NCBI GenBank assembly: GCA_027314665.1
Contig: DAHVAK010000271.1
Coordinates: forward strand, 1-57,746
Length of the DNA stretch: 57,746 nucleotides
Direction: 5' to 3'
Source: Spirochaetales bacterium
Lineage (GTDB): Bacteria; Spirochaetota; Spirochaetia; DAHUYW01
The translations under genes and the position numbers were made by a program. The notes beneath the pieces were generated by a model that saw only the letters and a program-made list of their open reading frames with translations, was not told the DNA's origin and made no database searches. Positions 6,891 through 54,801 of the stretch are shown piece by piece (position 1 is the first letter of the stretch; each line of letters opens with the position of its first letter).

Positions 6891-6964
6891 GGGGGCGTGG
6901 CGAAGCTGGTTATCGCGCCGGCCTGTCAAGCCGGAGATCGCGGGTTCAAGTCCCGTCGCTCCCG
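6891..6964 (+). tRNA. tRNA-Asp (anticodon GTC)
   Basis: Hand-folded cloverleaf. The acceptor stem GGGGGCG/CGCTCCC has 7 bp including one G-T pair. The anticodon stem is CCGGC/GCCGG with loop CTGTCAA. The T-arm contains GGTTCAAGTCC and the discriminator is G. No CCA is encoded. Confidence 0.9.
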
Positions 6965-6988
6965 ATTCCCTCCCTTCCGGGACGCCCT

Positions 6989-7061
6989 CGGGCTGTAGCG
7001 CAGTTGGTAGCGCGCATGGTTCGGGACCATGAGGTCCGCGGTTCAAGCCCGCGCAGCCCGA
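6989..7061 (+). tRNA. tRNA-Pro (anticodon CGG)
   Basis: The acceptor stem CGGGCTG/CAGCCCG is 7 perfect bp with C1:G72 and A73, as is typical of bacterial tRNA-Pro. The anticodon stem is CATGG/CCATG with loop TTCGGGA. The T-arm contains GGTTCAAGCCC. No CCA is encoded. Confidence 0.9.
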
Positions 7062-7157
7062 CTCTCCTTCTACCGAAAAAGCTTCACCTTCATCGAGGAA
7101 AGCCGCTGGAATTCGGGCCTATAGTTAGAGGAAAGCGAGTCCGAAGAGATAGGTAAG

Positions 7158-44924: not shown

Positions 44925-45857
44925 TCATCTCTCGCCGCTGCTTTCTTCTGTTCCGCGAGCCGGCCCGTCCGGGAGGCCCTCGTTCACCTCTGCCGAGCCG
45001 CGCCGAGCTGCCTCGGATACGTCGATGAAGGCCTCGTGCGGCTTCAAGGTTGCATTGGTGTACATTCTCGCCGTGAGACCGGGATCTGCGTGACCCAGGG
45101 CAGCGGCTACGGCCCGGAGGTCCTTGCCTCGCTGGATCTGGATGCGCGCCCAGGTGTGGCGCAATTGGTGGGCCGTGACCTCCCGTCCAAGCGTCCGCAG
45201 CGATTCGTACTTGATCCTGTTCGTTACCGATATTCGGTTGAACGGCTTGCCGTGATGCTCGAAGAGATAGGTGGCGCCGTGGAAGTAGGTTCGGACATGC
45301 TCCACGAACTTGGTCTTGACGTGGACCACCCTTTCCTTGGCTCTTTTCCCCACGATGCGCACCTCGACGAAATCAACGTCCGCCGGCTGCAAATCGGTGA
45401 GTCGGATCGCCAACATTTCGGACACCCGCACGCCGGTACCGACGAGAAACTGGACCATGAGCCGAATTGTGTTGTCCTTTGTCTTTTCCACGAAATTGTG
45501 GACTTCCTCCACGCTGAGCACCTTTTCCGGCGGGACGGCGAGGCTGTCGATTCGCTTCGGTTTGACCTGCTTCAGCACCTCTTCGAGTTGATAGTTCTTG
45601 CGAAGACTCTCGGCGGAGGAGCTGTGCTTGAAGGCATAGCGGATTCGGCTCTTGGCGGCCGCGATCTTACGGTTGATCGTCGCCGGACTGTAGCGCCTTC
45701 CGTCGTGCTCTTCTTCAAGCCAGGCGGCATATTCCTTGAGCGCGTCCACCAACAGCAGGTCGCGCTCCTTCATGAACGTGATGAACTGCTTCACGTCGAG
45801 ATTGTACGCATCGCGAATTTCCTCGAGCTCCTTGAACACCTTCTCCTGCTCCGTCAT
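44925..45857 (-). CDS. tyrosine recombinase / phage-type integrase
   Basis: 310 aa from the ATG at 45857, which is preceded by AGGAGG. It has a SAM-like N-domain. The catalytic blocks are GTGVRVSEMLAIR (Arg), AHQLRHTWA (HxxR) and LGHADPGLTARMY (His...Tyr). The gene is visibly more A/T-rich than its neighbours. Confidence 0.88.
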   Translation of the reverse strand: MTEQEKVFKELEEIRDAYNLDVKQFITFMKERDLLLVDALKEYAAWLEEEHDGRRYSPATINRKIAAAKSRIRYAFKHSSSAESLRKNYQLEEVLKQVKPKRIDSLAVPPEKVLSVEEVHNFVEKTKDNTIRLMVQFLVGTGVRVSEMLAIRLTDLQPADVDFVEVRIVGKRAKERVVHVKTKFVEHVRTYFHGATYLFEHHGKPFNRISVTNRIKYESLRTLGREVTAHQLRHTWARIQIQRGKDLRAVAAALGHADPGLTARMYTNATLKPHEAFIDVSEAARRGSAEVNEGLPDGPARGTEESSGER

Positions 45858-46109
45858 GCCGCACGCCCCTCCTACTTTCTCTTCGCTCCAGGTACCCCAG
45901 AGATTTGCAGAACTATTATTTAGTAATGTAACAGATAAAGTAGGCAAAGTCAAGCCTTCTCGGCGCCGCGAAACCGACCTCCGGGTGTGCGCGCCGCGCA
46001 TTCGGCTCCGACCCCTTCGGGGAGTGCTGTCGCATAGAGGCGAAGGATCGACTCTCTCCGTGCCGCTCCACTCCTTTACCATGGTATCCTGATGCAACAG
46101 GGGGGTGAT

Positions 46110-46622
46110 ATGGTGAAGGACAAAGGATTTGTCGAGTCCCGAGAGGTGATTGAAGGGATGCTTCGTGGGGAGACGCTGGGATTCCTCGGACTGTCCGTGG
46201 ACGGTAGGCCCTATGTAGTCCCGCTCACCTACGGATACCTCGACGGCCGGATCCTCTTCCATGGCGCGCTATCCGGAAAGAAGCTCGACTGCATCAGAGC
46301 AAACCCGAACGTTTGCTTCACGGTCGGGCGTCAACGGGGCAAACTGGTTCGTCATCCGCAGGGCGCGCGCTGCCACGTGGCCAATGACAGCGCCATCTGC
46401 TATGGGGTCGCGCGAATACTGGAGGATGTGCAGGAGCGCCGAACGGCCCTGCAAGCCTTCAACCGCTGTCTCGAGCCCGACGCCGGAGAGATTACCTTCG
46501 AGGCGGCCGCACAGTGCTCTGCCGTCGAGATCAAGATCGCCGAGATGACGGGTCGACGGCAGCAAGGATCGAACTACGCCTTCTTTCGCTACGAGTTTGG
46601 AGACAAGGGCGCGCGAGCATAG
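46110..46622 (+). CDS. pyridoxamine 5'-phosphate oxidase family (NimA-like) flavoprotein
   Basis: The start ATG at 46110 follows GGGGG. The split-barrel blocks are LGFLGLSVDGRPYVVPLTYGYLDGRILFHGALSGKKL and NPNVCFTV. Confidence 0.75.
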   Translation: MVKDKGFVESREVIEGMLRGETLGFLGLSVDGRPYVVPLTYGYLDGRILFHGALSGKKLDCIRANPNVCFTVGRQRGKLVRHPQGARCHVANDSAICYGVARILEDVQERRTALQAFNRCLEPDAGEITFEAAAQCSAVEIKIAEMTGRRQQGSNYAFFRYEFGDKGARA

Positions 46623-46672: not shown

Positions 46673-48139
46673 CTACCGTTCCGGCTTCTGCTTCTCCTCG
46701 GCGCTGCGGTCGTCGAAGACGAGGGTCGCCTCACCGACGCGCAGCACGTCGCCGGGGCGCAGGTGCCGCCGCTGGGCGGGGCGATTGTTCACCATGACGG
46801 GTTCATCGCTCACGACCGTGAAGGTGCCGCTGCGCTGATCCTTCACGAGGGTCACCTGACTCGTCGCGGATTCTCGGTTTTTTTCCGAGTCTTCCTCTTC
46901 CGATGTGACAGTGACTCGATTGCTCGCGTCGAAGCCAATCACGGTCTTGCCCTCGTTGAGTGAGAACACCTTGGTCGAGCCTCCAGCGAGAATCTCCAGA
47001 TTTGCATCGCTTCGTCGGTTGAGAAATCGAGCCCTGCTGATGAGAAACCAGGCGAGTAGCGCGATCAGGAAGGGAACCACGAGAAGGGGGCTCAGTCTTC
47101 CGGCGGGGGGACCGAAGAGGGTTCCGACGAAGTAGTACTGCGAAGCCGACGATGTCCCGTCCGGTCCGTGATACTCGACCCGCACTTCCCTCCTGTCGCC
47201 GGCAAGCATTCTCGGCGAGTAGGTCAGTCGATACTCCTCCAGAACACTCCTTCGCACGGAAAGATAGACGCTTGCAAGCTCCTTCTCGCTGCGCGCGTCG
47301 AACACGCGTCCTCCGGTCGAGTGGGCGATCGTCTGAAGGTTGGCATCCGGGAGCGCGGGGCCAAACTGAATCGGGAAGACGGATATTCCCTCGCGAATGA
47401 GGACGCGCACCGCCTCCTCGCTGGAGACGAGGGCCGAGCCGAACTGCGGATTCGGCCTGCCGGTGTGGAGATAGTAGGGGAAGTTCTCCCCATCGGTCAG
47501 AAGGAGAATCACCTTGCGTCCCTTCCACCCGGAAAGAACCTGCGCGGCAGCCCGGAGCGAGGCATAGAGCTCCGTGAAGGAATCGGCCTCCGTGGGCCGG
47601 ACAATCCTCGCGAGCGCCGCTTCCATATCCGAGCGCAGACGTGTTGGAAGCGTCTCTACGCGATAGAGGGTGTTGAACGAGGCGAGCCCGATCCGGTCGG
47701 CAGGATTATCGACCGAATTGAGAAAGATGCGGATCGCGGAGCGCGCCGCCTCGATTCGGGTCTGGGGGCGCGCGCCGGCTGCGGAGGCGTCGAGGGGTTC
47801 GTACATGCTTCCGGAGTTGTCGACGAGCAGAAAGAAGGTCAACCCCTCGTTCGCCGGAGCTCCCTCGTGAAACGAGAAGTGCGCCACCGGGAGCAGCGGC
47901 CCGCCGGGTAGCCCCTCGGACATCGAGAAGTCGCCCGCTTCGAGCCCGGTCACTGCGTTCCCATTCGGCCCGGTCACTCCCACGTAGACGTCCACCTCCT
48001 GCCGGGTGAGAAGGCGCGAGGGATCAATCTGCGCGATTGTCGCCTGCTCCTGGGCGAAGGCGGGCGCCGCCGCCGCGAGAATCATGATCAAGGCCGCCAA
48101 AGCTGCCGCGGGCTTCACTCTCTTCTTCACGGGGCTCAT
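46673..48139 (-). CDS. secreted vWA domain / single TM / cytoplasmic FHA-like domain protein
   Basis: The ATG at 48139 lies 6 nt after TAGGAGG, which spans the upstream stop. The signal peptide is AALAALIMILAAAAPAFA. The vWA MIDAS block is FFLLVDNSGSM, with ILLLTDGENF. The TM helix is LLVVPFLIALLAWFLI. The C-terminus is divergent FHA-like (GKTVIGFDASNRVTV...VMVNNRPAQRRHLRPGDVLRVGEATLVF). Confidence 0.7.
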   Translation of the reverse strand: MSPVKKRVKPAAALAALIMILAAAAPAFAQEQATIAQIDPSRLLTRQEVDVYVGVTGPNGNAVTGLEAGDFSMSEGLPGGPLLPVAHFSFHEGAPANEGLTFFLLVDNSGSMYEPLDASAAGARPQTRIEAARSAIRIFLNSVDNPADRIGLASFNTLYRVETLPTRLRSDMEAALARIVRPTEADSFTELYASLRAAAQVLSGWKGRKVILLLTDGENFPYYLHTGRPNPQFGSALVSSEEAVRVLIREGISVFPIQFGPALPDANLQTIAHSTGGRVFDARSEKELASVYLSVRRSVLEEYRLTYSPRMLAGDRREVRVEYHGPDGTSSASQYYFVGTLFGPPAGRLSPLLVVPFLIALLAWFLISRARFLNRRSDANLEILAGGSTKVFSLNEGKTVIGFDASNRVTVTSEEEDSEKNRESATSQVTLVKDQRSGTFTVVSDEPVMVNNRPAQRRHLRPGDVLRVGEATLVFDDRSAEEKQKPER

Positions 48140-48149
48140 CTCTTGCCTC

Positions 48150-49130
48150 CTACTCACGTTTGTAGAGGAACTTCACCGCCCCGCACGCTATCACGTCGTC
48201 GAACTTCAAGGGGGCTCCCGCCTGCCGGGCGGCGCGAGCGGGCTGGAACTCGGCGGGCTGTCCACCCGCAATCCGCTCATCGTTCACCCGTACGCTGCCC
48301 TCCATGGGCTCGATGAATAGGTCGCGCCCCCGGGCGACGAGCCGGCAGTGCGCCTCGGCTATATCCCGATAGCCCAGTGAGCTTCCCGGTTGCACCAACT
48401 CCGGCGTGGCGCGCTTCTTCGCGGGGATGGGGATGTCGCAGCGGGCGCCGGAGCCGATGACCATCCTGCGCTGGTTGAGGATGTACTCCCGGCTCTTGAA
48501 GGGACCATTGAGGACCCTGAAAACCCCGAACGAAAGGCGCCTCTCGACAACGGCGTAGGCAAGGCCGATGAGGATCCCGAGCAAGAGCAAGCCCACGAGG
48601 TGCGCCACGGGAAAGGCGGGGAAGAAGAGCCGTCCGTACTCGATTGCCGCGCCGCCGAGGATGCCTCCGGTGAATCCCCCGAGGGCCCCGATGGCAATCT
48701 TTCGGGCCGACGACGAGCGGATGCCCGCCGCCGCCCCGACGCAGGCCCCCAGGATCCCCCAACCGACCGCCCGCGCTACCGGCATCGCGATGCTTTCCAC
48801 CCGGTGGAGGTTGCTCATGAGATAGTCGCCGACGAGGAAGAGGATCCCTTGGGCTGCGAGGAATCCCAGGGCGCCTCCGCCCGCCCCGACGACCCCTCCA
48901 ACGCCCGCCCCGAGCACGATGCGTCTCCTGCGCGAAGCGATGATCCCATCGGCTCCGCCGAGGAAGGCGCCGAAGATGAGCCCAAAGAGCGCACCCGAGA
49001 CGATCGAGTAGGCGAGATAGCTCGAAAAGTGCACCTGCAGGTGGATGAGCAGCTCCATCACCGGCCACGTCGCGAGGCCCGCGGAGATTCCGAGGGCAAG
49101 CTGTATGAGACGTCGAATGAGAATCGTCAT
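48150..49130 (-). CDS. multi-TM Gly-rich membrane protein with a C-terminal FHA-like domain
   Basis: It has 5-6 Gly/Ala-rich helices (GAFLGGADGIIA, GAGVGGVVGAGGGALGF, GALGGFTGGILGGAAI). These are followed by RRMVIGSGARCDIPI...AHCRLVARGRDLFIEPMEGSVRVNDERI. It is translationally coupled on both sides. Confidence 0.65.
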   Translation of the reverse strand: MTILIRRLIQLALGISAGLATWPVMELLIHLQVHFSSYLAYSIVSGALFGLIFGAFLGGADGIIASRRRRIVLGAGVGGVVGAGGGALGFLAAQGILFLVGDYLMSNLHRVESIAMPVARAVGWGILGACVGAAAGIRSSSARKIAIGALGGFTGGILGGAAIEYGRLFFPAFPVAHLVGLLLLGILIGLAYAVVERRLSFGVFRVLNGPFKSREYILNQRRMVIGSGARCDIPIPAKKRATPELVQPGSSLGYRDIAEAHCRLVARGRDLFIEPMEGSVRVNDERIAGGQPAEFQPARAARQAGAPLKFDDVIACGAVKFLYKRE

Positions 49131-49136
49131 CTGCCA

Positions 49137-51059
49137 TCACTCCAGAAGATCGGGTGCGCTCGCGTAGCCGCTACTGTCGAAGAGAATCTTGCCGGACTTG
49201 CGGTCCGCCACGATCCTCAGGCTCAGCCGCTCGAGCGGCAGCACGCTGAAGGCATACTGGCCCGAGAGCGCACCGCTGTGCACCGTGAGGGTGTGCGGAC
49301 CAGGGGCGAGGCGAAGCTCGGCTGCGCGCGCGCCGATCCGAGGTATCGCAGCGAGATGGGGGGTTCGGCCCCATTCGCGATAGGTGCCGGAACCATCGAG
49401 GTCGACGCTGACGGTGCCCGCGCCCGACGTGAGCTCGACCGCCCCAGGGTAGGGTACGAGGCTTGCGTCGATTCGGAGCTGGCTCTCAAACGGTCGGACC
49501 GCGAGGGCGTAGTCGGAGGGGTAGTATCCGTCGTGCGCAAAGCGAAATTGATAGGCCCCGCCTGAGCGCAGCGACGAGGCGACATCCCCGACAAAGGCCA
49601 CCCAGCTCCCGTTCGCATACAGCTCGACAGCCGTGCCGCCGGTGATCGTTTCTCCCCCGGCCGCCGATTCGACCCGAAACGATACAGAAAGGGGAAGGCT
49701 CGCCCCCTCATCGATCGATACGACGAGGCTTCGGCCCGCGCCGCCGCCGCCGGTCGCCCGCTGGTCGCGGCGGGACTCGAGGGTGAACCCCCGCCACACG
49801 AGCTGGTTCGAGGCCGCGACCTTGACCCGATACTGCCCGACGGGGAGGTAGAGCGGACGGCTCACGAAGACCTCGGTCTCCTGCGTGTTCTGCTCGCGGT
49901 CTACGTGGAAGACAAAGCGAGCCCCTTGCACGCGAGGAATCTCCTTTCCGTCGTCGCGGAACAGCTCCGCTGCAACATAGCGCTCCCGAGCCGGCAGGAG
50001 CCCGCGGGCAACGCGAACCGTCAGCACGAGCTCGCCGTAGCGATTGGGATAGAGAAGCTCGGAGGCAATCCCGCTTCGCAAGCCGTAGTAGGCTGCCCCG
50101 CCGCCGAGAAGCAACAAGGCGACGGCTACCGCAGCGACGGCGCCTCCGAGTCGGGAACGCTTTCTCGGCGGCGACCAGGTTCGGCTCAAGAACGAGGCGA
50201 TCTGGGTTCGCTGCTCTCCCGCCGCCCGCGACCCGAGTCGTCGGTCGAGCTTCTTCAACACGACGCAAAGGTCCTGGAAACGCCGCGTCCGCTTCGCGCT
50301 CATCGCCTTGCGAATCAATCGAGCGGTGAAGCGCGTAATGGCGGGGTTGTGTGTCCTAGGCCTTCGGTATTTCCCGTGCTGGATGGCCTTGAGAGTCTCG
50401 GGTGTGACGGAACCGGGGAAGGGCCGCTTGCCGGTCATCATCTCGTAGAGCATCACCCCGAGGGAGTAGATGTCGGCGCGCTTGTCGACGCTTCGGGTGT
50501 CCTGGAACTGCTCGGGGGCCATGTAGGACGGCGTGCCGAGGATCGTACCCTCACGGGTGAGATCCGCTTCATTCTCGTCGTCGATGTGCGCAATGCCGAA
50601 GTCGACGAGCTTGACGTCGCCTCGGCGTGAAAGGAGGATGTTGCCTGGTTTGATATCCCGATGGATGACGCCGCGATCGTGGGCGTACTTCAGGGCGCGG
50701 CAGCAGTCGCGGAAGATGAGGAGCGCTACCCACTCGGGGAGGTATCGCTCGCGCTGCAGAAGCTGGGAGAGGGAAATCCCATCGACGTATTCCTGAACGA
50801 TGTAGTAGGCGGGTCCCTCGCGAAAATGGTCGAAGACGTCGACGATGTACTCGTTGCGGAAGTCCATCATGATGGAGGCCTCTCGCCGGAAGCGCTCGCG
50901 CACGGCCGCACTTCCGCGCAGGGTGAGCTTCTTGATGGTCACGGTCCGGTCGAGAGTCGGGTGTGCGGCGGTGTACACCGCGCCCATTCCCCCTCGCGCA
51001 ATCTCGGAGATAACCTTGTATTTTCCAATAGTCTCAGGCGGTCGGGCCATCGTTTGCAT
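49137..51059 (-). CDS. Hanks-type Ser/Thr protein kinase with a TM helix and an extracytoplasmic beta-rich (PEGA-like) region
   Basis: The kinase motifs are GGMGAVY, VTIKKL, HRDIKPGNILL, DFGIAH and GTPSYMAPEQ. The TM helix is AVAAVAVALLLLGGGAAYYGL. About 300 aa of C-terminus carries PEGA-like repeats (GAYQFRFAHDGYYPSDYALAV). Confidence 0.9.
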   Translation of the reverse strand: MQTMARPPETIGKYKVISEIARGGMGAVYTAAHPTLDRTVTIKKLTLRGSAAVRERFRREASIMMDFRNEYIVDVFDHFREGPAYYIVQEYVDGISLSQLLQRERYLPEWVALLIFRDCCRALKYAHDRGVIHRDIKPGNILLSRRGDVKLVDFGIAHIDDENEADLTREGTILGTPSYMAPEQFQDTRSVDKRADIYSLGVMLYEMMTGKRPFPGSVTPETLKAIQHGKYRRPRTHNPAITRFTARLIRKAMSAKRTRRFQDLCVVLKKLDRRLGSRAAGEQRTQIASFLSRTWSPPRKRSRLGGAVAAVAVALLLLGGGAAYYGLRSGIASELLYPNRYGELVLTVRVARGLLPARERYVAAELFRDDGKEIPRVQGARFVFHVDREQNTQETEVFVSRPLYLPVGQYRVKVAASNQLVWRGFTLESRRDQRATGGGGAGRSLVVSIDEGASLPLSVSFRVESAAGGETITGGTAVELYANGSWVAFVGDVASSLRSGGAYQFRFAHDGYYPSDYALAVRPFESQLRIDASLVPYPGAVELTSGAGTVSVDLDGSGTYREWGRTPHLAAIPRIGARAAELRLAPGPHTLTVHSGALSGQYAFSVLPLERLSLRIVADRKSGKILFDSSGYASAPDLLE

Positions 51060-52155
51060 CCTCGGGAGCGCTTAGCTCGATAACATCGCGCGTAAGCTCG
51101 GCGGTACGGTCCGCGGCGAGCAGCGCCATTATATACCGGGACGGGTTATGGATCTGGACGTACCTCCCCCCTGCGCGGAGACTATACCTTCCCCTGACTG
51201 CACGGTGGCCGCCGAAATGAAAGGCCGTTGGAGCCTCGCTTGGATCGAGGTAGTGTTCGAGCATCCGATCCACCGCGTCCGTTTCGGCTTGGTCGTTGTC
51301 GGTCCAGGTCAGGCCGTAGATCACCTCGTCGCGACCGCGATACTCGATCACCTCTTCGCGCGAAAAGAAGCGCGCGGGCTCAGCGTGGCTGATGAGGTAG
51401 TGGGGGCCGATCGCGAGGAGGGGAAGCCGCTTCTCGAACTCAGAGACTCGCGCGATAAGCTGCTCGGTGTAGAATAGGCGAAGGTACTCGAGAACCATTG
51501 CACCCTCATACGCGTACTTGCCGAAGGGACGATTTCCGGCTCCCGTCTCGTTGGCGATGTTTTCGTGATTCCCCTTAAGCAGGTGGATGCGAGTCGGCGC
51601 GGCCGACTTAAGCGCTGCAATCATCATGAGCACCGCAAGGCCTTCGGTCATTTCCCCGTCCATCGCCTCGTGCAAGGCGAAGCCGTCCGAGAACTCGGTG
51701 AGTGCGCGCCTCCATCGCTCCCTCACCCGACCCTCGCCGTGCAAGTAGTCCCCGAGACAGACAAGCTGGATCGAGCCGGCAAGGATCCCTTCGAGAACCG
51801 TGGCGGAATCCGGCAGAACGTAGCTCAAGGCGGCCCAAATGAGGCCTGGGCGCGCGTGGATGTCAGGCAGAAGAACGGTCGGGAGATCTCGATCGAGCAC
51901 GACGAGCCCACCCGGCTCCCTGAAGCGGTCGAGCGGACGAATGGTCTCGTGCTCCGAGGCGAGGACGCTGTTGACCGTGCGGAGCGCCTCATCGAGTGCC
52001 GATGGGGAGGGGACGGTTCGCGCCGATCGATACCCATCGAGCTGCTCTCGAAGCGAGGGGGGAACCCTTTGCGGCTCACTCACCGGAAGGCTGCCCTTCG
52101 CCGATCCGACACGATCGCCCTCACTCGGCGACGACCGTCTTGTTGACTTCCACAA
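51034..52155 (-). CDS. PPP-family metallophosphoesterase (likely Ser/Thr phosphatase)
   Basis: The motifs are LLPDIHARP (DxH), LGDYLHGEG (GD) and LLKGNHEN (GNHE). The start is uncertain: the TTG at 52155 overlaps the upstream gene by 35 nt, and the GTG at 52083 is an alternative. The 3' end overlaps the kinase start. Confidence 0.8.
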   Translation of the reverse strand: MWKSTRRSSPSEGDRVGSAKGSLPVSEPQRVPPSLREQLDGYRSARTVPSPSALDEALRTVNSVLASEHETIRPLDRFREPGGLVVLDRDLPTVLLPDIHARPGLIWAALSYVLPDSATVLEGILAGSIQLVCLGDYLHGEGRVRERWRRALTEFSDGFALHEAMDGEMTEGLAVLMMIAALKSAAPTRIHLLKGNHENIANETGAGNRPFGKYAYEGAMVLEYLRLFYTEQLIARVSEFEKRLPLLAIGPHYLISHAEPARFFSREEVIEYRGRDEVIYGLTWTDNDQAETDAVDRMLEHYLDPSEAPTAFHFGGHRAVRGRYSLRAGGRYVQIHNPSRYIMALLAADRTAELTRDVIELSAPEDANDGPTA

Positions 52156-52651
52156 AGTCCTCGCTCAAGATCTGGGTGGCTTCGCTCAAGCGCTCCAGTT
52201 CCTCCTTCGGCTCGAGGCGCTCCGTAAGAACTGCGATCTTGAAGACCGCCGAGCTCTTTCGAATCGGTCCCTTGGAAAAAACGACAGGCTCGTCGATGCG
52301 GATATCCTCCGCAAGCGAGGCGCTCTTGTCGCCGGCGCTCTTGGGAACATCCTGCCGCAGCTCGATGGAGGCATACTCCGCCGGTCGCTTGCCCCCGACG
52401 AGCGGACCGAGGGTGAGCAGGGAGCCCGAATAGGTCATCACGAGCGCACCTCGGTCCTCCTCCTTTGCGAACTCGTCCCATTCCTCCATGTGAAACTCGC
52501 TGATTCGCGCCTCGAAGGCATTTCGTTTCTCGAGCCAGGCCTGCGCTATCCGTTCGACGGACTCATCGGTTTCGGGAAGCCCCGAGCTTGCCGTGATGCT
52601 CTTGATGTGATCGCGGACATGTTCGGGTATCTGACTCATGTACTCACCCAT
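52121..52651 (-). CDS. unknown protein (176 aa), first gene of the kinase operon, paralog of the N-terminal domain of 52859..53746
   Basis: MGEYMSQIPEHVRDHIKSITASSGLPETDESVERIAQAWLEKRNAFEARI... I recognise no family. It is clearly similar to the divergently transcribed neighbour. Confidence 0.7.
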   Translation of the reverse strand: MGEYMSQIPEHVRDHIKSITASSGLPETDESVERIAQAWLEKRNAFEARISEFHMEEWDEFAKEEDRGALVMTYSGSLLTLGPLVGGKRPAEYASIELRQDVPKSAGDKSASLAEDIRIDEPVVFSKGPIRKSSAVFKIAVLTERLEPKEELERLSEATQILSEDFVEVNKTVVAE

Positions 52652-52858
52652 CGAAACTCCTCCGCGCCGTCGCGTGCCCCCCGCCAGAGACGGCCCATTG
52701 AGTGGTAAGATATCCCGTCAAACCTGCGAAATCAGTCCGGCGGCGCCCGGCCTGCATGGGCGCTCATGCCTGCAGGGCCCCCGCCCACTGCCGTACCCGC
52801 GCCGGGGCTCAGGCGAAAGGGGCGGGTGATCCAGCCGTTTGGTGCTATCCTAGAGCCT

Positions 52859-53746
52859 ATGGTCTATTCTGAGGAATACCTGCGGCAGCTGCTCACGGAT
52901 CGGGTCAAACGCCACCTCGAGTCGATCACCGAGTCGTCGGGCCTGCCTCCCGGCCGGGAGTCGCTTGATCGCATCACCGCGAACTGGCTCGAAAAGCGGC
53001 GGCTCTTCGAGGATCAGATTCGGCTGTTGGGAATGGAGATGCCGAGCGAGCTCGCGCAAGAGGACGCACGGGGAGTCGTTCTTCTCACCTATTCAGGCTC
53101 GCTCGTCGCCCTCGGGCGCGCCGGGCAGCAGGGGCGATGGTTCGAATACGCGAGCATCAAGCTGCGCAATGACGTTCCGGGCCTCGTGAAAGCGAGCGGG
53201 GTCACCGTCCAGGGACGGATTGCGATCGACGCTCCGGTCCACTTCGGCAGCTGCCCCATCGAGCGCTCCTCCGATGTGCTTCTCATCGGGGTCTGCCCCT
53301 CGAGGCTCGAGCAAGCGGAAGAGGACAGGCGGCTTCGCGAGGCCACCGTGTTTCTCACGAACGGATTCGTCAAGCTCAACCGAACTCTCACGATTCCCGA
53401 TGATGCGATCGGTCATTTCACCATGAAGAGCATGGTTCAGTACCTCGCAAAAAAACACGAGATAGCGCAGACCCTCACCCGAGAGCTTCTCGACGACTAC
53501 CTGACGATGATCGAAGCCGGGGCCCTGATGGGCGAAAGCGTGCCCCTCGGGAACCTCGGACACCTGCGCCTTGCCAGGCGCCCGGCCCAGAAGGCGCGCG
53601 TCGGACGCAATCCTGCCACGGGCGGCGAGATGACGATTCCGGCGAGACCCGAAGCCTTCGTGCCGCGAATGTCCTTCAGCGCCCGCCTGAAGGAGCGCGC
53701 GGCGTCGCTGCCTCTTCCTGAAGGCGACGGACCCTCCCTCGAGTAG
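52859..53746 (+). CDS. unknown N-terminal domain fused to a C-terminal HU/IHF-type DNA-binding domain
   Basis: Start at the ATG at 52859. Residues 1-180 are paralogous to 52121..52651. Residues ~189-281 match the HU fold signature (MKSMVQYLAKKHEIAQTLTRELLDDYLTMIEAGALMGESVPLGNLGHLRLARRPAQKARVGRNPATGGEMTIPARPEAFVPRMSFSARLKERA), and GRNPxTGxxxxIPA is the HU beta-arm motif. Confidence 0.75.
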   Translation: MVYSEEYLRQLLTDRVKRHLESITESSGLPPGRESLDRITANWLEKRRLFEDQIRLLGMEMPSELAQEDARGVVLLTYSGSLVALGRAGQQGRWFEYASIKLRNDVPGLVKASGVTVQGRIAIDAPVHFGSCPIERSSDVLLIGVCPSRLEQAEEDRRLREATVFLTNGFVKLNRTLTIPDDAIGHFTMKSMVQYLAKKHEIAQTLTRELLDDYLTMIEAGALMGESVPLGNLGHLRLARRPAQKARVGRNPATGGEMTIPARPEAFVPRMSFSARLKERAASLPLPEGDGPSLE

Positions 53747-53822: not shown

Positions 53823-54170
53823 ATGGATGACACGATCTACAAGAGAAGCCCCGAGGGCAAGGAAATCGCTCGCGGATCGGAGATGAGGCAGCTGTGTCTC
53901 CGCTTCCGTGATCGCACGATCGAGATGGCGAAGACCGTTCGTATCGGAAGAGACGAGAACAACGACGTCGTGATTTCGGATGACCCGCTCGTCTCGCGGC
54001 GTCACGCCATCATCGAGCACATCGACGGCGGGTATCGGCTCAGGGACCTCGGGAGCACGAACCAGACCTACCTCAACAACAACCCCCTTCCGGCGCAGAC
54101 GAGCGTGGCGGTCAAGAGCGGCGATATCATTACGATCGGGCATACGCAGCTGAAGCTCTCGCGGCTCTGA
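53823..54170 (+). CDS. small stand-alone FHA domain protein (115 aa)
   Basis: It carries canonical FHA motifs: VRIGRDENNDVVISDDPLVSRRHAIIEHIDGGYRLRDLGSTNQTYLNNNPL...GDIITIGHTQLKL. Confidence 0.85.
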   Translation: MDDTIYKRSPEGKEIARGSEMRQLCLRFRDRTIEMAKTVRIGRDENNDVVISDDPLVSRRHAIIEHIDGGYRLRDLGSTNQTYLNNNPLPAQTSVAVKSGDIITIGHTQLKLSRL

Positions 54171-54204: not shown

Positions 54205-54801
54205 ATGGCGAATAGACCGTCTGCCCGAAAGACGCCGGCAAGGAAAACCGCTTCAGAGAGAAAGAAGCCTGCTCCCACGAAGGCTGCGGCCTCAAGGAAG
54301 GCAGCGAAACCCCTATCGGCGCGGGACAAGCTCTCGGATGAGCTTGTCAGCATGCTGCCGGAAATCGACGCGGAGGGCTTGCTGTTTCTAATTCGCCAGG
54401 CCAATGTCCTGCTGCATAACAAGCGGGTCGATGAGCTGAATGCCGAAACGGAAAGGCTGAACAAGCACGGAAAGGAGGCGCGCAAGAAGGCCGGGACTAC
54501 CGCACGGGTCGGGCAGACCGTCGAGGAGATCACCGTCGAAATTCAGAAGTCCCCTGATGCCAAGACCTACTACGTCATCGTGGATGAGCAGAAGCATTTC
54601 TTCACCGCCGAGGAGATGGGGGCGGTGGTGAAGCTCTGCTTCAAGCCCGAACGGAAAAGCGAAGCCCTGCGCTATCTGCATCAGTTCATGAATAACGAAC
54701 GCAGGGAAGTCTTAATGGATCACGGTGTCTCCACCGAGAAGCATCCGTTTTTCGAAGCCCTTTTCTACGAAGTGCGCTCCAAGTTCACTCTCGATCGTTG
54801 A
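54205..54801 (+). CDS. unknown protein with a histone-H1-like Lys/Ala/Pro-rich N-terminal tail
   Basis: The tail is MANRPSARKTPARKTASERKKPAPTKAAASRKAAKPLSARDK. It is followed by a ~150 aa globular region from a family I do not recognise. The gene lies 34 nt downstream of the FHA gene on the same strand. Confidence 0.6.
   Translation: MANRPSARKTPARKTASERKKPAPTKAAASRKAAKPLSARDKLSDELVSMLPEIDAEGLLFLIRQANVLLHNKRVDELNAETERLNKHGKEARKKAGTTARVGQTVEEITVEIQKSPDAKTYYVIVDEQKHFFTAEEMGAVVKLCFKPERKSEALRYLHQFMNNERREVLMDHGVSTEKHPFFEALFYEVRSKFTLDR

What the first reader, a model, noticed from the sequence alone, without database searches (positions are those of the whole stretch)
52121..53746. Divergently transcribed paralog pair carrying an unrecognised ~170-aa domain, one copy fused to HU/IHF
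The 176-aa protein and the first ~180 aa of the 295-aa protein align without gaps over long blocks. By-eye alignment gives 22 of 40 identical residues for HVRDHIKSITASSGLPETDESVERIAQAWLEKRNAFEARI against RVKRHLESITESSGLPPGRESLDRITANWLEKRRLFEDQI. It gives 10 of 17 for RGALVMTYSGSLLTLGP against RGVVLLTYSGSLVALGR, and 10 of 12 for EYASIELRQDVP against EYASIKLRNDVP. I do not recognise the domain. The longer copy ends in an unmistakable HU beta-arm signature (GRNPATGGEMTIPA). A stand-alone domain next to a domain-HU fusion suggests a partner-switch or heterodimer module that tethers a signal to DNA. The stand-alone copy leads the kinase/phosphatase operon.
Basis: seen in the sequence. Interest (0 to 1): 0.7.

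Follow-up and report, generated by a model that had tools for sequence, protein, structure and literature searches.

The report
Spirochaete signalling domain fused to HU
Two neighbouring spirochaete genes share an uncharacterised protein domain with no recognisable relatives; one copy is fused to an HU-type DNA-bending protein and the other heads a conserved kinase/phosphatase operon, which suggests a lineage-specific route from a membrane sensor to DNA.

Summary
ORF A (52121-52651, minus strand, 176 aa) and residues 1-178 of ORF B (52859-53746, plus strand, 295 aa) are 46% identical with one gap (E 8e-45). B residues 188-280 form a genuine HU/IHF domain (PF00216, 43.5 bits).

The shared ~175-aa domain matches nothing in Pfam, NCBIfam, PADLOC or PDB sequences. 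Confident AlphaFold models (pLDDT 88-90) have no Foldseek neighbour in PDB or BFVD. An exhaustive HMM search of 1.84 billion representative proteins found only 209 members. All named members come from Spirochaetota, and almost all are either stand-alone (~176 aa) or HU-fused (~290 aa).

The gene context is conserved. A is followed by a PPP-like phosphatase, a Hanks receptor kinase, a membrane FHA protein and a VWA membrane protein in more than 90% of 80 genomes. B lies divergently next to A in about two thirds of genomes, often with a small FHA gene. One lineage fuses the domain to the VWA membrane protein.

Best reading: this is a spirochaete-specific variant of the FHA/vWA/kinase/phosphatase cassettes, and the HU fusion is its DNA-binding partner. 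Heterodimerisation, phosphorylation and ligand binding all remain untested. The domain is new, but the system logic is a variant of a known kind.

The parts
52121..52651 (-). Gene A: stand-alone N-domain protein, 176 aa, net charge -13 (family median -19, pI 4.4). First gene of the kinase/phosphatase operon.
   Evidence: ORF; RBS; 46% identity to B; 106 homologues of ~176 aa, all 'hypothetical', Spirochaetota; AF2 pLDDT 89.9; charge.
52652..52858 (.). Divergent intergenic spacer (207 bp) that must hold both promoters. In most relatives it is only 42-90 bp.
   Evidence: No sigma-70 consensus match. No motif shared across lineages was found except the RBS of A and -10-like TAnnnT elements.
52859..53398 (+). 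Gene B, residues 1-180: the paralogous N-domain (three helices, a ~7-strand antiparallel sheet, a long C-terminal helix).
   Evidence: Residues invariant in both paralogues (B numbering): W43, S79-G80-S81, Y97, R103, P107, S138, N174.
53399..53419 (+). Gene B linker (residues ~181-187). Lower model confidence. Preceded by the Thr/Ser-rich N-R-T-L-T end of the N-domain helix.
   Evidence: pLDDT 64-74 for residues 171-190; column frequencies.
53420..53698 (+). Gene B, residues 188-280: HU/IHF-fold DNA-binding domain with the R-N-P beta-arm (nt 53603-53644).
   Evidence: PF00216 43.5 bits; PDB sequence hits only to HU/IHF; Foldseek top hits are HU/IHF-DNA complexes, 1p71_A E 5e-6, TMt 0.71; arm residues R247, G249, N251, P252, T254 and G255 are at least 92% conserved in the family.
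51034..52110 (-). Divergent PPP-like (calcineurin-like) metallophosphatase, ~358 aa. The start codon is uncertain (the ORF opens at 52155).
   Evidence: Metallophos is sub-threshold for the window protein (21.0 bits against a 21.5 cut-off), but 18 of 24 orthologues match, best E 7e-7. Invariant D83-x-H85, G120-D121, G180-N181-H182-E183, H242 and G301-H302. The weak PDB sequence hits are all PP1, PP5, BSU1 or PP2A.
49137..51059 (-). Hanks-type Ser/Thr receptor kinase, 640 aa: kinase domain 14-255, one TM helix (~302-327), and a ~310-aa extracytoplasmic region with no Pfam match.
   Evidence: Pkinase E 7e-52; hydropathy; C-terminal region has no family.
48150..49130 (-). Polytopic membrane protein with a C-terminal FHA-like domain.
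   Evidence: Yop-YscD_cpl E 5e-7 and FHA E 0.049, both below the curated cut-offs; TM segments; orthologues carry FHA/YscD hits.
46673..48157 (-). Signal peptide, periplasmic VWA domain, TM helix (351-379), and a cytoplasmic tail with weak FHA-like similarity.
   Evidence: VWA_2 E 5e-14; sequence; hydropathy; tail matches Yop-YscD_cpl at E 1.5e-3, sub-threshold.
53823..54170 (+). Small cytoplasmic FHA protein (115 aa), 77 nt downstream of B on the same strand.
   Evidence: FHA E 1.9e-21. It recurs next to B in other genomes in three different arrangements.

Best explanation
A and B are ancient paralogues of a Spirochaetota-restricted alpha/beta domain (~175 aa) that no library describes. A is a very acidic stand-alone copy. 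It is the first gene of a transmembrane Ser/Thr phospho-signalling operon: a PPP-like phosphatase, a receptor Hanks kinase, a polytopic FHA protein, and a periplasmic VWA protein with a cytoplasmic FHA-like tail. B carries the same domain on the N-terminus of an HU/IHF fold and is usually transcribed divergently from A, often with a small FHA protein.

I infer that B is the DNA-binding partner or output of this cassette. The HU part dimerises and bends DNA. The N-domains hang below the HU dimer body and form the regulated surface. That surface is probably modified by the kinase and phosphatase on conserved Thr/Ser positions (the invariant T-Y-S-G-S-L hairpin, or the N-[KR]-T end of the last helix and the linker) and read by the FHA domains. 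A acts on the same interfaces as a competitor, decoy or co-regulator.

Shown: paralogy, the HU domain, the absence of any known relative or fold neighbour, conserved synteny, and a VWA-TM-N-domain fusion. Inferred: phosphorylation, FHA reading, contact or competition between A and B, and a transcriptional or nucleoid output.
For: Paralogy: 46% identity over 173 aa, E 8e-45. HU domain. A closed, lineage-specific family with essentially two architectures: 209 hits among 1.84e9 representatives, and only Spirochaetota names. Synteny in 80 A-anchored species genomes, counted over loci where the position is visible: kinase downstream 69/73, PPP-like gene next 67/78, membrane FHA 55/58, VWA 55/58, B divergent and adjacent 50/74. 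In B-anchored loci, A is divergent and adjacent in 49/75 and elsewhere in the locus in 4. Several MAGs without adjacency carry both genes on different contigs. The linkage survives rearrangement: B and the small FHA gene sit convergently after VWA in L004, L022 and L034. The small FHA gene is next to B in three arrangements. Rosetta-stone fusion: P0285 is signal peptide, VWA, TM, N-domain, found on 8 contigs, with the membrane-FHA gene just upstream. This puts the N-domain on the cytoplasmic tail, where the window's VWA protein has an FHA-like tail. Precedents: FHA (ArnA) and vWA (ArnB) proteins controlled by kinases and the PPP phosphatase PP2A regulate gene expression in Sulfolobus (PMC6509490, PMC7472852). 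A vWA-STPK-FHA-PP2C operon exists in Deinococcus (bioRxiv 10.64898/2026.01.23.701218). STPK phosphorylation lowers DNA binding of mycobacterial HU (HupB), as summarised in PMC4754617.
Against: There is no direct evidence for phosphorylation of A or B, for FHA binding, or for contact between A and B. B also occurs without the operon nearby: Spirochaeta africana has it next to an MCP gene, and 22 of 75 B-anchored loci show no A. B may therefore have a function independent of the cassette. The excess of within-genome A-B similarity is tiny (36.4% versus 34.9%). About 11 of 78 loci lack the phosphatase gene. The conserved polar residues (H, K, S-G-S, R, Y, R, D, S, N) would fit a ligand pocket as well as a phospho-switch.
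Confidence: 0.5

Rival explanations
1. The N-domain is a small-molecule or phospho-ligand sensor. A and B each bind the same metabolite, nucleotide or phosphopeptide in a pocket between the long helices and the sheet. A passes the signal to the kinase/phosphatase complex and B passes it to DNA. No A:B complex or phosphorylation of the domain is needed.
For: Nine residues are invariant in both paralogues and mostly polar: W, S-G-S, Y, R, P, S, N. Near-invariant H, K, T, R, E and D accompany them. This pattern is typical of a binding or catalytic site. Their spacing places them on the helix faces and strands that pack against each other. The weakest Foldseek echoes are ligand-pocket folds: PYL/START, lipocalin, GAF.
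Against: Those fold matches are noise (probability at most 0.16, TM at most 0.27). No enzyme or transporter for a candidate ligand is conserved in the neighbourhood.
Confidence: 0.2
2. B is simply the housekeeping HU-type nucleoid protein of these spirochaetes with a lineage-specific N-terminal domain. Its adjacency to A is a relic of an old tandem (inverted) duplication and carries no regulatory meaning.
For: B is annotated only as an HU family protein. It is strongly conserved over its full length. It also occurs away from the operon. No other HU gene was seen in any fetched locus, but those loci sample only the A/B neighbourhood.
Against: A-B identity of ~35% against A-A orthologue identity of 43-81% shows the duplication is ancient. 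Even so, adjacency persists in about two thirds of species. It is also re-created in other arrangements: convergent after VWA, or with the FHA gene inserted between A and B. Neutral relics are not retained this way.
Confidence: 0.15
3. A is an acidic anti-HU or DNA-mimic protein. It binds the basic HU arms of B directly and blocks DNA binding. B's own acidic N-domain acts as an in-cis autoinhibitor.
For: The A family has a median net charge of -19 and pI 4.4. The B N-domain has -9. The HU part has +4 and pI 9.6.
Against: Acidity alone is weak evidence. The 35-46% identity between A and B's N-domain points to a shared fold-specific function rather than generic charge mimicry. No similarity to known DNA mimics was found.
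Confidence: 0.1

Closest known systems
HU/IHF family nucleoid proteins (PF00216), including HU proteins with extra regions such as mycobacterial HupB
   Same: B residues 188-280 score above the Pfam threshold. The modelled fold superposes on HU/IHF-DNA complexes. The R-x-G-R-N-P-x-T-G beta-arm with the intercalating proline is conserved. HupB is a precedent for Ser/Thr-kinase control of an HU (PMC4754617).
   Different: B carries a folded 180-aa N-terminal domain of unknown family. HupB instead has a low-complexity basic C-terminal tail. B is genomically coupled to a paralogous stand-alone domain and to a kinase operon.
FHA-vWA-Ser/Thr kinase-phosphatase cassettes: Sulfolobus ArnA/ArnB with ArnC/D and PP2A; Deinococcus DRA0331-0334
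   Same: The part list is the same: FHA, vWA, a Hanks kinase and a protein phosphatase. As in the Arn network, the phosphatase is PPP-type. The proposed output is control of gene expression (PMC6509490, PMC7472852, bioRxiv 10.64898/2026.01.23.701218).
   Different: Here the VWA domain is predicted to be periplasmic and membrane-anchored, and the FHA protein is polytopic. The cassette is led by an extra, uncharacterised acidic protein (A). The candidate DNA-binding component is an HU fusion rather than a zinc-finger FHA protein.
Partner-switching modules (STAS anti-anti-sigma / HATPase kinase anti-sigma / PP2C)
   Same: The idea is the same: a small phosphorylatable protein competes for a partner and so frees or sequesters a transcription factor.
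   Different: None of the defining domains (STAS, GHKL kinase, PP2C, sigma factor) is present. The resemblance is at most in logic, and that logic is untested.

Membership tests
HU/IHF (Bac_DNA_binding, PF00216), for the C-terminal part of B | Sequence match above the curated Pfam threshold | tested here: met
   43.5 bits against a cut-off of 22.4, E 3.7e-11, residues 188-280, profile positions 2-88 of 90. NCBIfam equivalog models for IHF-alpha, IHF-beta and HU match only below their cut-offs, so B is not an orthologue of any named subunit.
HU/IHF (Bac_DNA_binding, PF00216), for the C-terminal part of B | HU fold: two helices, a three-strand sheet and an extended beta-arm | tested here: met
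   The AF2 model has H189-199, H204-223, strands 234-273 and H275-283. The 28 Foldseek matches at E <= 1e-3 are all HU/IHF-family proteins, with target-normalised TM 0.65-0.77.
HU/IHF (Bac_DNA_binding, PF00216), for the C-terminal part of B | Conserved arm motif with the intercalating proline (R-N-P-x-T-G) | tested here: met
   GRNPATGGEMTIPA at residues 249-262. P252 and G255 are 100% conserved in 119 family members, N251 96% and T254 98%.
HU/IHF (Bac_DNA_binding, PF00216), for the C-terminal part of B | Dimerisation and DNA binding or bending | not testable with these tools
   Needs EMSA or ChIP, or multimer modelling.
Any described protein family or fold, for the shared N-domain | Significant match to Pfam-A, NCBIfam, PADLOC or PDB sequences | tested here: not met
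   No Pfam hit better than E 0.096 for either window protein. Across 100 family members no Pfam family matched more than 14 members, and all matches were sub-threshold. NCBIfam gave 0 hits and PADLOC 0. The family profile against PDB sequences gave one hit at E 0.013, to a proteasome subunit.
Any described protein family or fold, for the shared N-domain | Structural neighbour of a confident model | tested here: not met
   The model of A has pLDDT 89.9 and pTM 0.85. Foldseek against PDB gave best E 0.057 and TM at most 0.27. BFVD gave best E 0.022 and TM at most 0.27. AlphaFold DB was not available, so predicted structures of cellular proteins were not searched.
FHA/vWA/Ser-Thr kinase/phosphatase signalling cassette | Co-operonic Hanks kinase, FHA-domain protein(s), vWA protein and protein phosphatase | tested here: met
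   Pkinase E 7e-52, FHA E 1.9e-21, VWA_2 E 5e-14, and a PPP-like metallophosphatase with all metal-ligand motifs. The arrangement is conserved in 55-69 of 58-73 informative genomes.
FHA/vWA/Ser-Thr kinase/phosphatase signalling cassette | Phosphothreonine-dependent interaction among the components | not testable with these tools
   Requires biochemistry or phosphoproteomics.
Partner-switching module (STAS / anti-sigma kinase / PP2C) | STAS-domain antagonist, GHKL-type anti-sigma kinase and PP2C phosphatase | tested here: not met
   None of these domains was found in A, B or their neighbours.

The most novel reading that the evidence does not exclude
The N-domain is a new fold that works as a phospho- or ligand-controlled switch. 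Through paralogue competition (free A, or a membrane-anchored copy as in the VWA fusion, against the HU-fused B) it couples a transmembrane Hanks-kinase/VWA/FHA sensor directly to an HU-type DNA-bending protein. This would be a short eukaryote-like-kinase-to-nucleoid pathway peculiar to spirochaetes.
Probability: 0.3. Interest if true: 0.7.

Novelty: new variant of a known kind. Interest (0 to 1): 0.55.

Why it matters
HU proteins are usually treated as small, constitutive nucleoid organisers. Here an HU fold is permanently joined to a folded regulatory domain, and that domain's only other occurrence is at the head of a receptor-kinase operon. This would be a concrete, testable case of signal-controlled HU activity. 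It would also give a function to a protein family that is invisible to current annotation: the stand-alone copies are labelled 'hypothetical protein' and the fusions 'HU family DNA-binding protein'. The family is confined to Spirochaetota, including cultured Spirochaeta africana and Alkalispirochaeta alkalica, so genetics and biochemistry are feasible. It also adds a new component to the widespread but poorly understood FHA/vWA/kinase/phosphatase cassettes.

Tried and rejected
- **Library and fold searches.** The N-domain found nothing in Pfam, NCBIfam or PADLOC, by PDB-sequence phmmer/hmmsearch, or by Foldseek against PDB and BFVD. The faint echoes (GTP cyclohydrolase I, REC114 PH, PYL/START, Sm, coronavirus spike domains) all have TM below 0.3 and were rejected as noise.
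- **Shared operator site.** I looked for a common site in 51 A/B intergenic regions. Only the RBS of A and lineage-specific -10-like elements recur, and the sigma-70 scan of the window found nothing.
- **Co-evolution.** I compared A-B identity within a genome with identity between genomes. The result is significant by permutation, but the effect is 1.4 percentage points, which is inconclusive.
- **Phylogeny.** An NJ tree of N-domains was too noisy, because of fragmentary metagenomic sequences, to show clean reciprocal monophyly. Orthologue and paralogue identities were used instead.
- **The 198-aa ORF downstream of B.** It is a separate spirochaete-only family that is not linked to B elsewhere, so it was excluded from the system.
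- **RNA elements.** Rfam and tRNA scans found no RNA element near the locus.
- **Second HU gene.** None was found in the fetched DNA, but that DNA is not a genome sample.
- **Defence-system reading.** Only generic kinase models match in PADLOC, so this reading was rejected.
Full report
**1. What is in the sequence**

ORF A runs from 52651 to 52121 on the minus strand (176 aa). A GGAGGAG ribosome-binding site lies 5 nt upstream of its ATG. ORF B lies on the plus strand. The open frame starts at 52766, but the ATG at 52859 gives 295 aa, which matches the length of the homologues. The two start codons face each other across 207 bp.

BLASTP of A against B aligns A residues 3-174 with B residues 6-178. 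Identity is 46% (79/173) with a single gap, E 8e-45. B residues 188-280 (nt 53420-53698) match Pfam PF00216 at 43.5 bits against a cut-off of 22.4. PDB sequence hits are exclusively HU/IHF.

**2. The shared domain is unknown to current resources**

- Neither protein's N-domain matches Pfam-A or NCBIfam.
- Scanning all 100 aligned stand-alone homologues against Pfam gave no family in more than 14 members, and every match was sub-threshold.
- PADLOC found nothing.
- A family profile against all PDB sequences gave a single hit at E 0.013, which is noise.
- AlphaFold2 with family alignments gave confident models: A has pLDDT 89.9 and pTM 0.85, and B has pLDDT 87.7 and pTM 0.73.
- Both N-domains show the same topology: two short helices, a long helix, a roughly seven-strand antiparallel sheet, and a 27-residue C-terminal helix.
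- Foldseek with the full-length B model found only HU/IHF structures.
- Foldseek with the A model found nothing at E <= 1e-3 in PDB (best E 0.057, TM <= 0.27) or BFVD.
- AlphaFold DB was not available. The accurate claim is therefore 'no solved or viral-predicted structural neighbour', not 'new fold'.

**3. Family size and architectures**

An exhaustive HMM search with the A-family profile against 1.84 billion representative proteins returned only 209 hits at E <= 1e-3, of which 76 were at E <= 1e-30. Complete hits fall into two length classes:

- about 176 aa, the stand-alone form;
- about 280-305 aa, the HU-fused form.

Every source name is Spirochaetota: Spirochaetia, Spirochaetaceae, Treponemataceae, Treponema, Alkalispirochaeta, Sediminispirochaeta, and one MAG labelled Leptospirales. 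Cultured members include Spirochaeta africana (B only seen) and Alkalispirochaeta alkalica DSM 8900 (A and B adjacent, L069). Databases label the proteins 'hypothetical protein' or 'HU family DNA-binding protein'.

One exception is informative. P0285 (701 aa) was seen on 8 contigs from independent assemblies. It consists of a signal peptide, a VWA domain, a TM helix, the N-domain and a 126-aa tail, and a membrane-FHA gene lies immediately upstream.

**4. Conservation within the domain**

Residues invariant across both paralogues (A numbering) are W39, S75-G76-S77, Y93, R99, P103, S134 and N170. Near-invariant residues are H15, K42, T73, R89, E92 and D101.

The A family is very acidic, with median net charge -19 and pI 4.4. 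B's N-domain has -9, and the HU part is basic at +4 and pI 9.6. In B the HU arm (R-x-A-Q-K-A-R-x-G-R-N-P-A-T-G-E-E) is almost invariant, so DNA binding is under selection.

A-A orthologue identities are 43-81%. A-B identities average about 35%. The duplication therefore predates the radiation of these lineages. The window's 46% is the second highest of 47 pairs.

**5. Genomic context**

Downstream of A on the minus strand, with overlaps or gaps of a few nucleotides, lie four genes.

- **PPP-like metallophosphatase (51034-52110).** The window protein's Pfam hit is just sub-threshold, but 18 of 24 orthologues match. The D-x-H, G-D, G-N-H-E, H and G-H metal-ligand motifs are invariant. The weak PDB matches are all PP1, PP5, PP2A or BSU1.
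- **Hanks kinase (49137-51059).** It has one TM helix and a 310-aa extracytoplasmic region with no family match.
- **Polytopic membrane protein with a C-terminal FHA-like domain (48150-49130).**
- **VWA protein (46673-48157).** It has a signal peptide, a VWA domain, a TM helix, and a cytoplasmic tail with weak FHA-like similarity.

Downstream of B lies a 115-aa FHA protein (53823-54170).

In 80 species-representative genomes anchored on A, counting only loci where the position is visible:

| Feature | Count |
|---|---|
| Kinase follows A | 69/73 |
| Phosphatase is the next gene | 67/78 |
| Membrane FHA present downstream | 55/58 |
| VWA present downstream | 55/58 |
| B divergent and adjacent | 50/74 |

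Anchoring on B gives A divergent and adjacent in 49/75 loci. Several MAGs that lack adjacency carry both genes on separate contigs.

The linkage survives rearrangement. In L004, L022 and L034, B sits convergently after the VWA gene; in L004 and L034 the small FHA gene sits beside it. In about ten loci the FHA gene lies between A and B. This is the pattern expected of functional coupling, not of a decaying duplication.

**6. Most likely mechanism (inference)**

The cassette is a transmembrane Ser/Thr phospho-signalling complex. It has extracytoplasmic sensing parts (the kinase ectodomain and the periplasmic VWA domain) and cytoplasmic phosphothreonine readers (three FHA or FHA-like domains). 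A and B are the only conserved soluble components without an enzymatic or reader role, which makes them the natural substrates or effectors.

B's HU domain should dimerise and bend DNA. Because the fusion is at the HU N-terminus, the two N-domains would sit under the dimer body, away from the arms, and be available for protein contacts.

Candidate phospho-acceptor sites are:

- the invariant T-Y-S-G-S-L hairpin;
- the N-[KR]-T end of the last helix, which in B runs into the lower-confidence linker (pLDDT 64-74).

The VWA-TM-N-domain fusion places the N-domain on the cytoplasmic tail, where the window's VWA protein has an FHA-like tail. This argues that N-domains act at the cytoplasmic face of the membrane complex. 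A could therefore compete with B for the complex, or for B itself.

There are precedents. The Sulfolobus ArnA(FHA)/ArnB(vWA) module is controlled by kinases and the PPP phosphatase PP2A (PMC6509490, PMC7472852). Deinococcus has a vWA-STPK-FHA-PP2C operon (bioRxiv 10.64898/2026.01.23.701218). Ser/Thr-kinase phosphorylation reduces DNA binding by mycobacterial HupB (PMC4754617).

I put 0.5 on the general statement that B is the DNA-binding partner of the A-led phospho-signalling cassette, acting through the shared domain. I put much less on any one molecular detail.

**7. Rivals**

- **Ligand sensor (0.2).** The domain may be a ligand or phospho-ligand sensor, and A and B sense the same molecule independently. 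The polar invariant residues fit this reading.
- **Housekeeping HU (0.15).** B may be the lineage's ordinary HU and the adjacency meaningless. Retention and re-creation of the linkage after an ancient duplication argue against this.
- **DNA mimic (0.1).** A may be an acidic DNA mimic that blocks the HU arms.

The within-genome excess of A-B similarity (36.4% versus 34.9%, permutation p < 2e-4) is too small to discriminate between these and may reflect composition.

**8. Verdict**

The finding is real and well delimited. It identifies an unannotated, Spirochaetota-restricted domain family with two main architectures, embedded in a strongly conserved signalling cassette. The system logic is a variant of the known FHA/vWA/kinase/phosphatase modules, with two unusual features: an uncharacterised domain and an HU-fold partner. 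The heterodimer or partner-switch idea remains an untested but reasonable hypothesis. Interest is 0.55. Novelty is 'new variant of a known kind'.

Noticed in passing
window 54205-54801 (+): A 198-aa ORF lies directly after B and the small FHA gene. It has a Lys/Ala/Pro-rich, histone-tail-like N-terminus. It has 30 homologues, all from spirochaete metagenomes, with no Pfam domain. It is not next to B in other genomes, so it is probably not part of the system.
   Followed up: yes
L166 8001-10106 (protein P0285): A 701-aa fusion of signal peptide, VWA, TM helix, N-domain and an unknown 126-aa tail. It is found on 8 contigs in a low-GC lineage. A membrane-FHA gene precedes it, and no Hanks kinase is nearby; an adenylate cyclase and a 7TMR-DISM/SpoIIE phosphatase are in the neighbourhood.
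   Followed up: partly
window 52652-52858: The A/B intergenic spacer is 207 bp here, against 42-90 bp in most relatives (88 bp in the closest ones). The extra DNA is GC-rich and holds a near-repeat, CTGCAGGCATG ... CATGCAGGCC. In the window a TGCTATCCT element sits about 7 nt before B's ATG, which might mean a leaderless B transcript.
   Followed up: partly
L009-L014, L029, L048, L049, L053 (A-anchored loci): In about 11 of 78 genomes the PPP-like phosphatase gene is missing and the kinase follows A directly. The phosphatase is therefore a dispensable or replaceable part of the cassette.
   Followed up: no
window 49137-50130 (kinase residues ~330-640): The kinase's predicted extracytoplasmic region of ~310 aa has no Pfam match. 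It may be another uncharacterised sensor domain.
   Followed up: no
window 44925-46262 (-): A tyrosine recombinase (Phage_integrase, E 2.7e-22) lies about 400 bp beyond the end of the VWA gene. No other mobile-element features were examined.
   Followed up: no
window 52121-52651 versus 52859-53398: The window's A/B pair (46% identity) is the second most similar of 47 same-genome pairs, whose mean is 36%. This could reflect local gene conversion between the inverted paralogues, or shared GC-driven composition.
   Followed up: partly
window 6891-7062 (+): tRNA-Asp(GTC) and tRNA-Pro(CGG) lie in tandem. They are the only Rfam or ARAGORN hits in the window.
   Followed up: no
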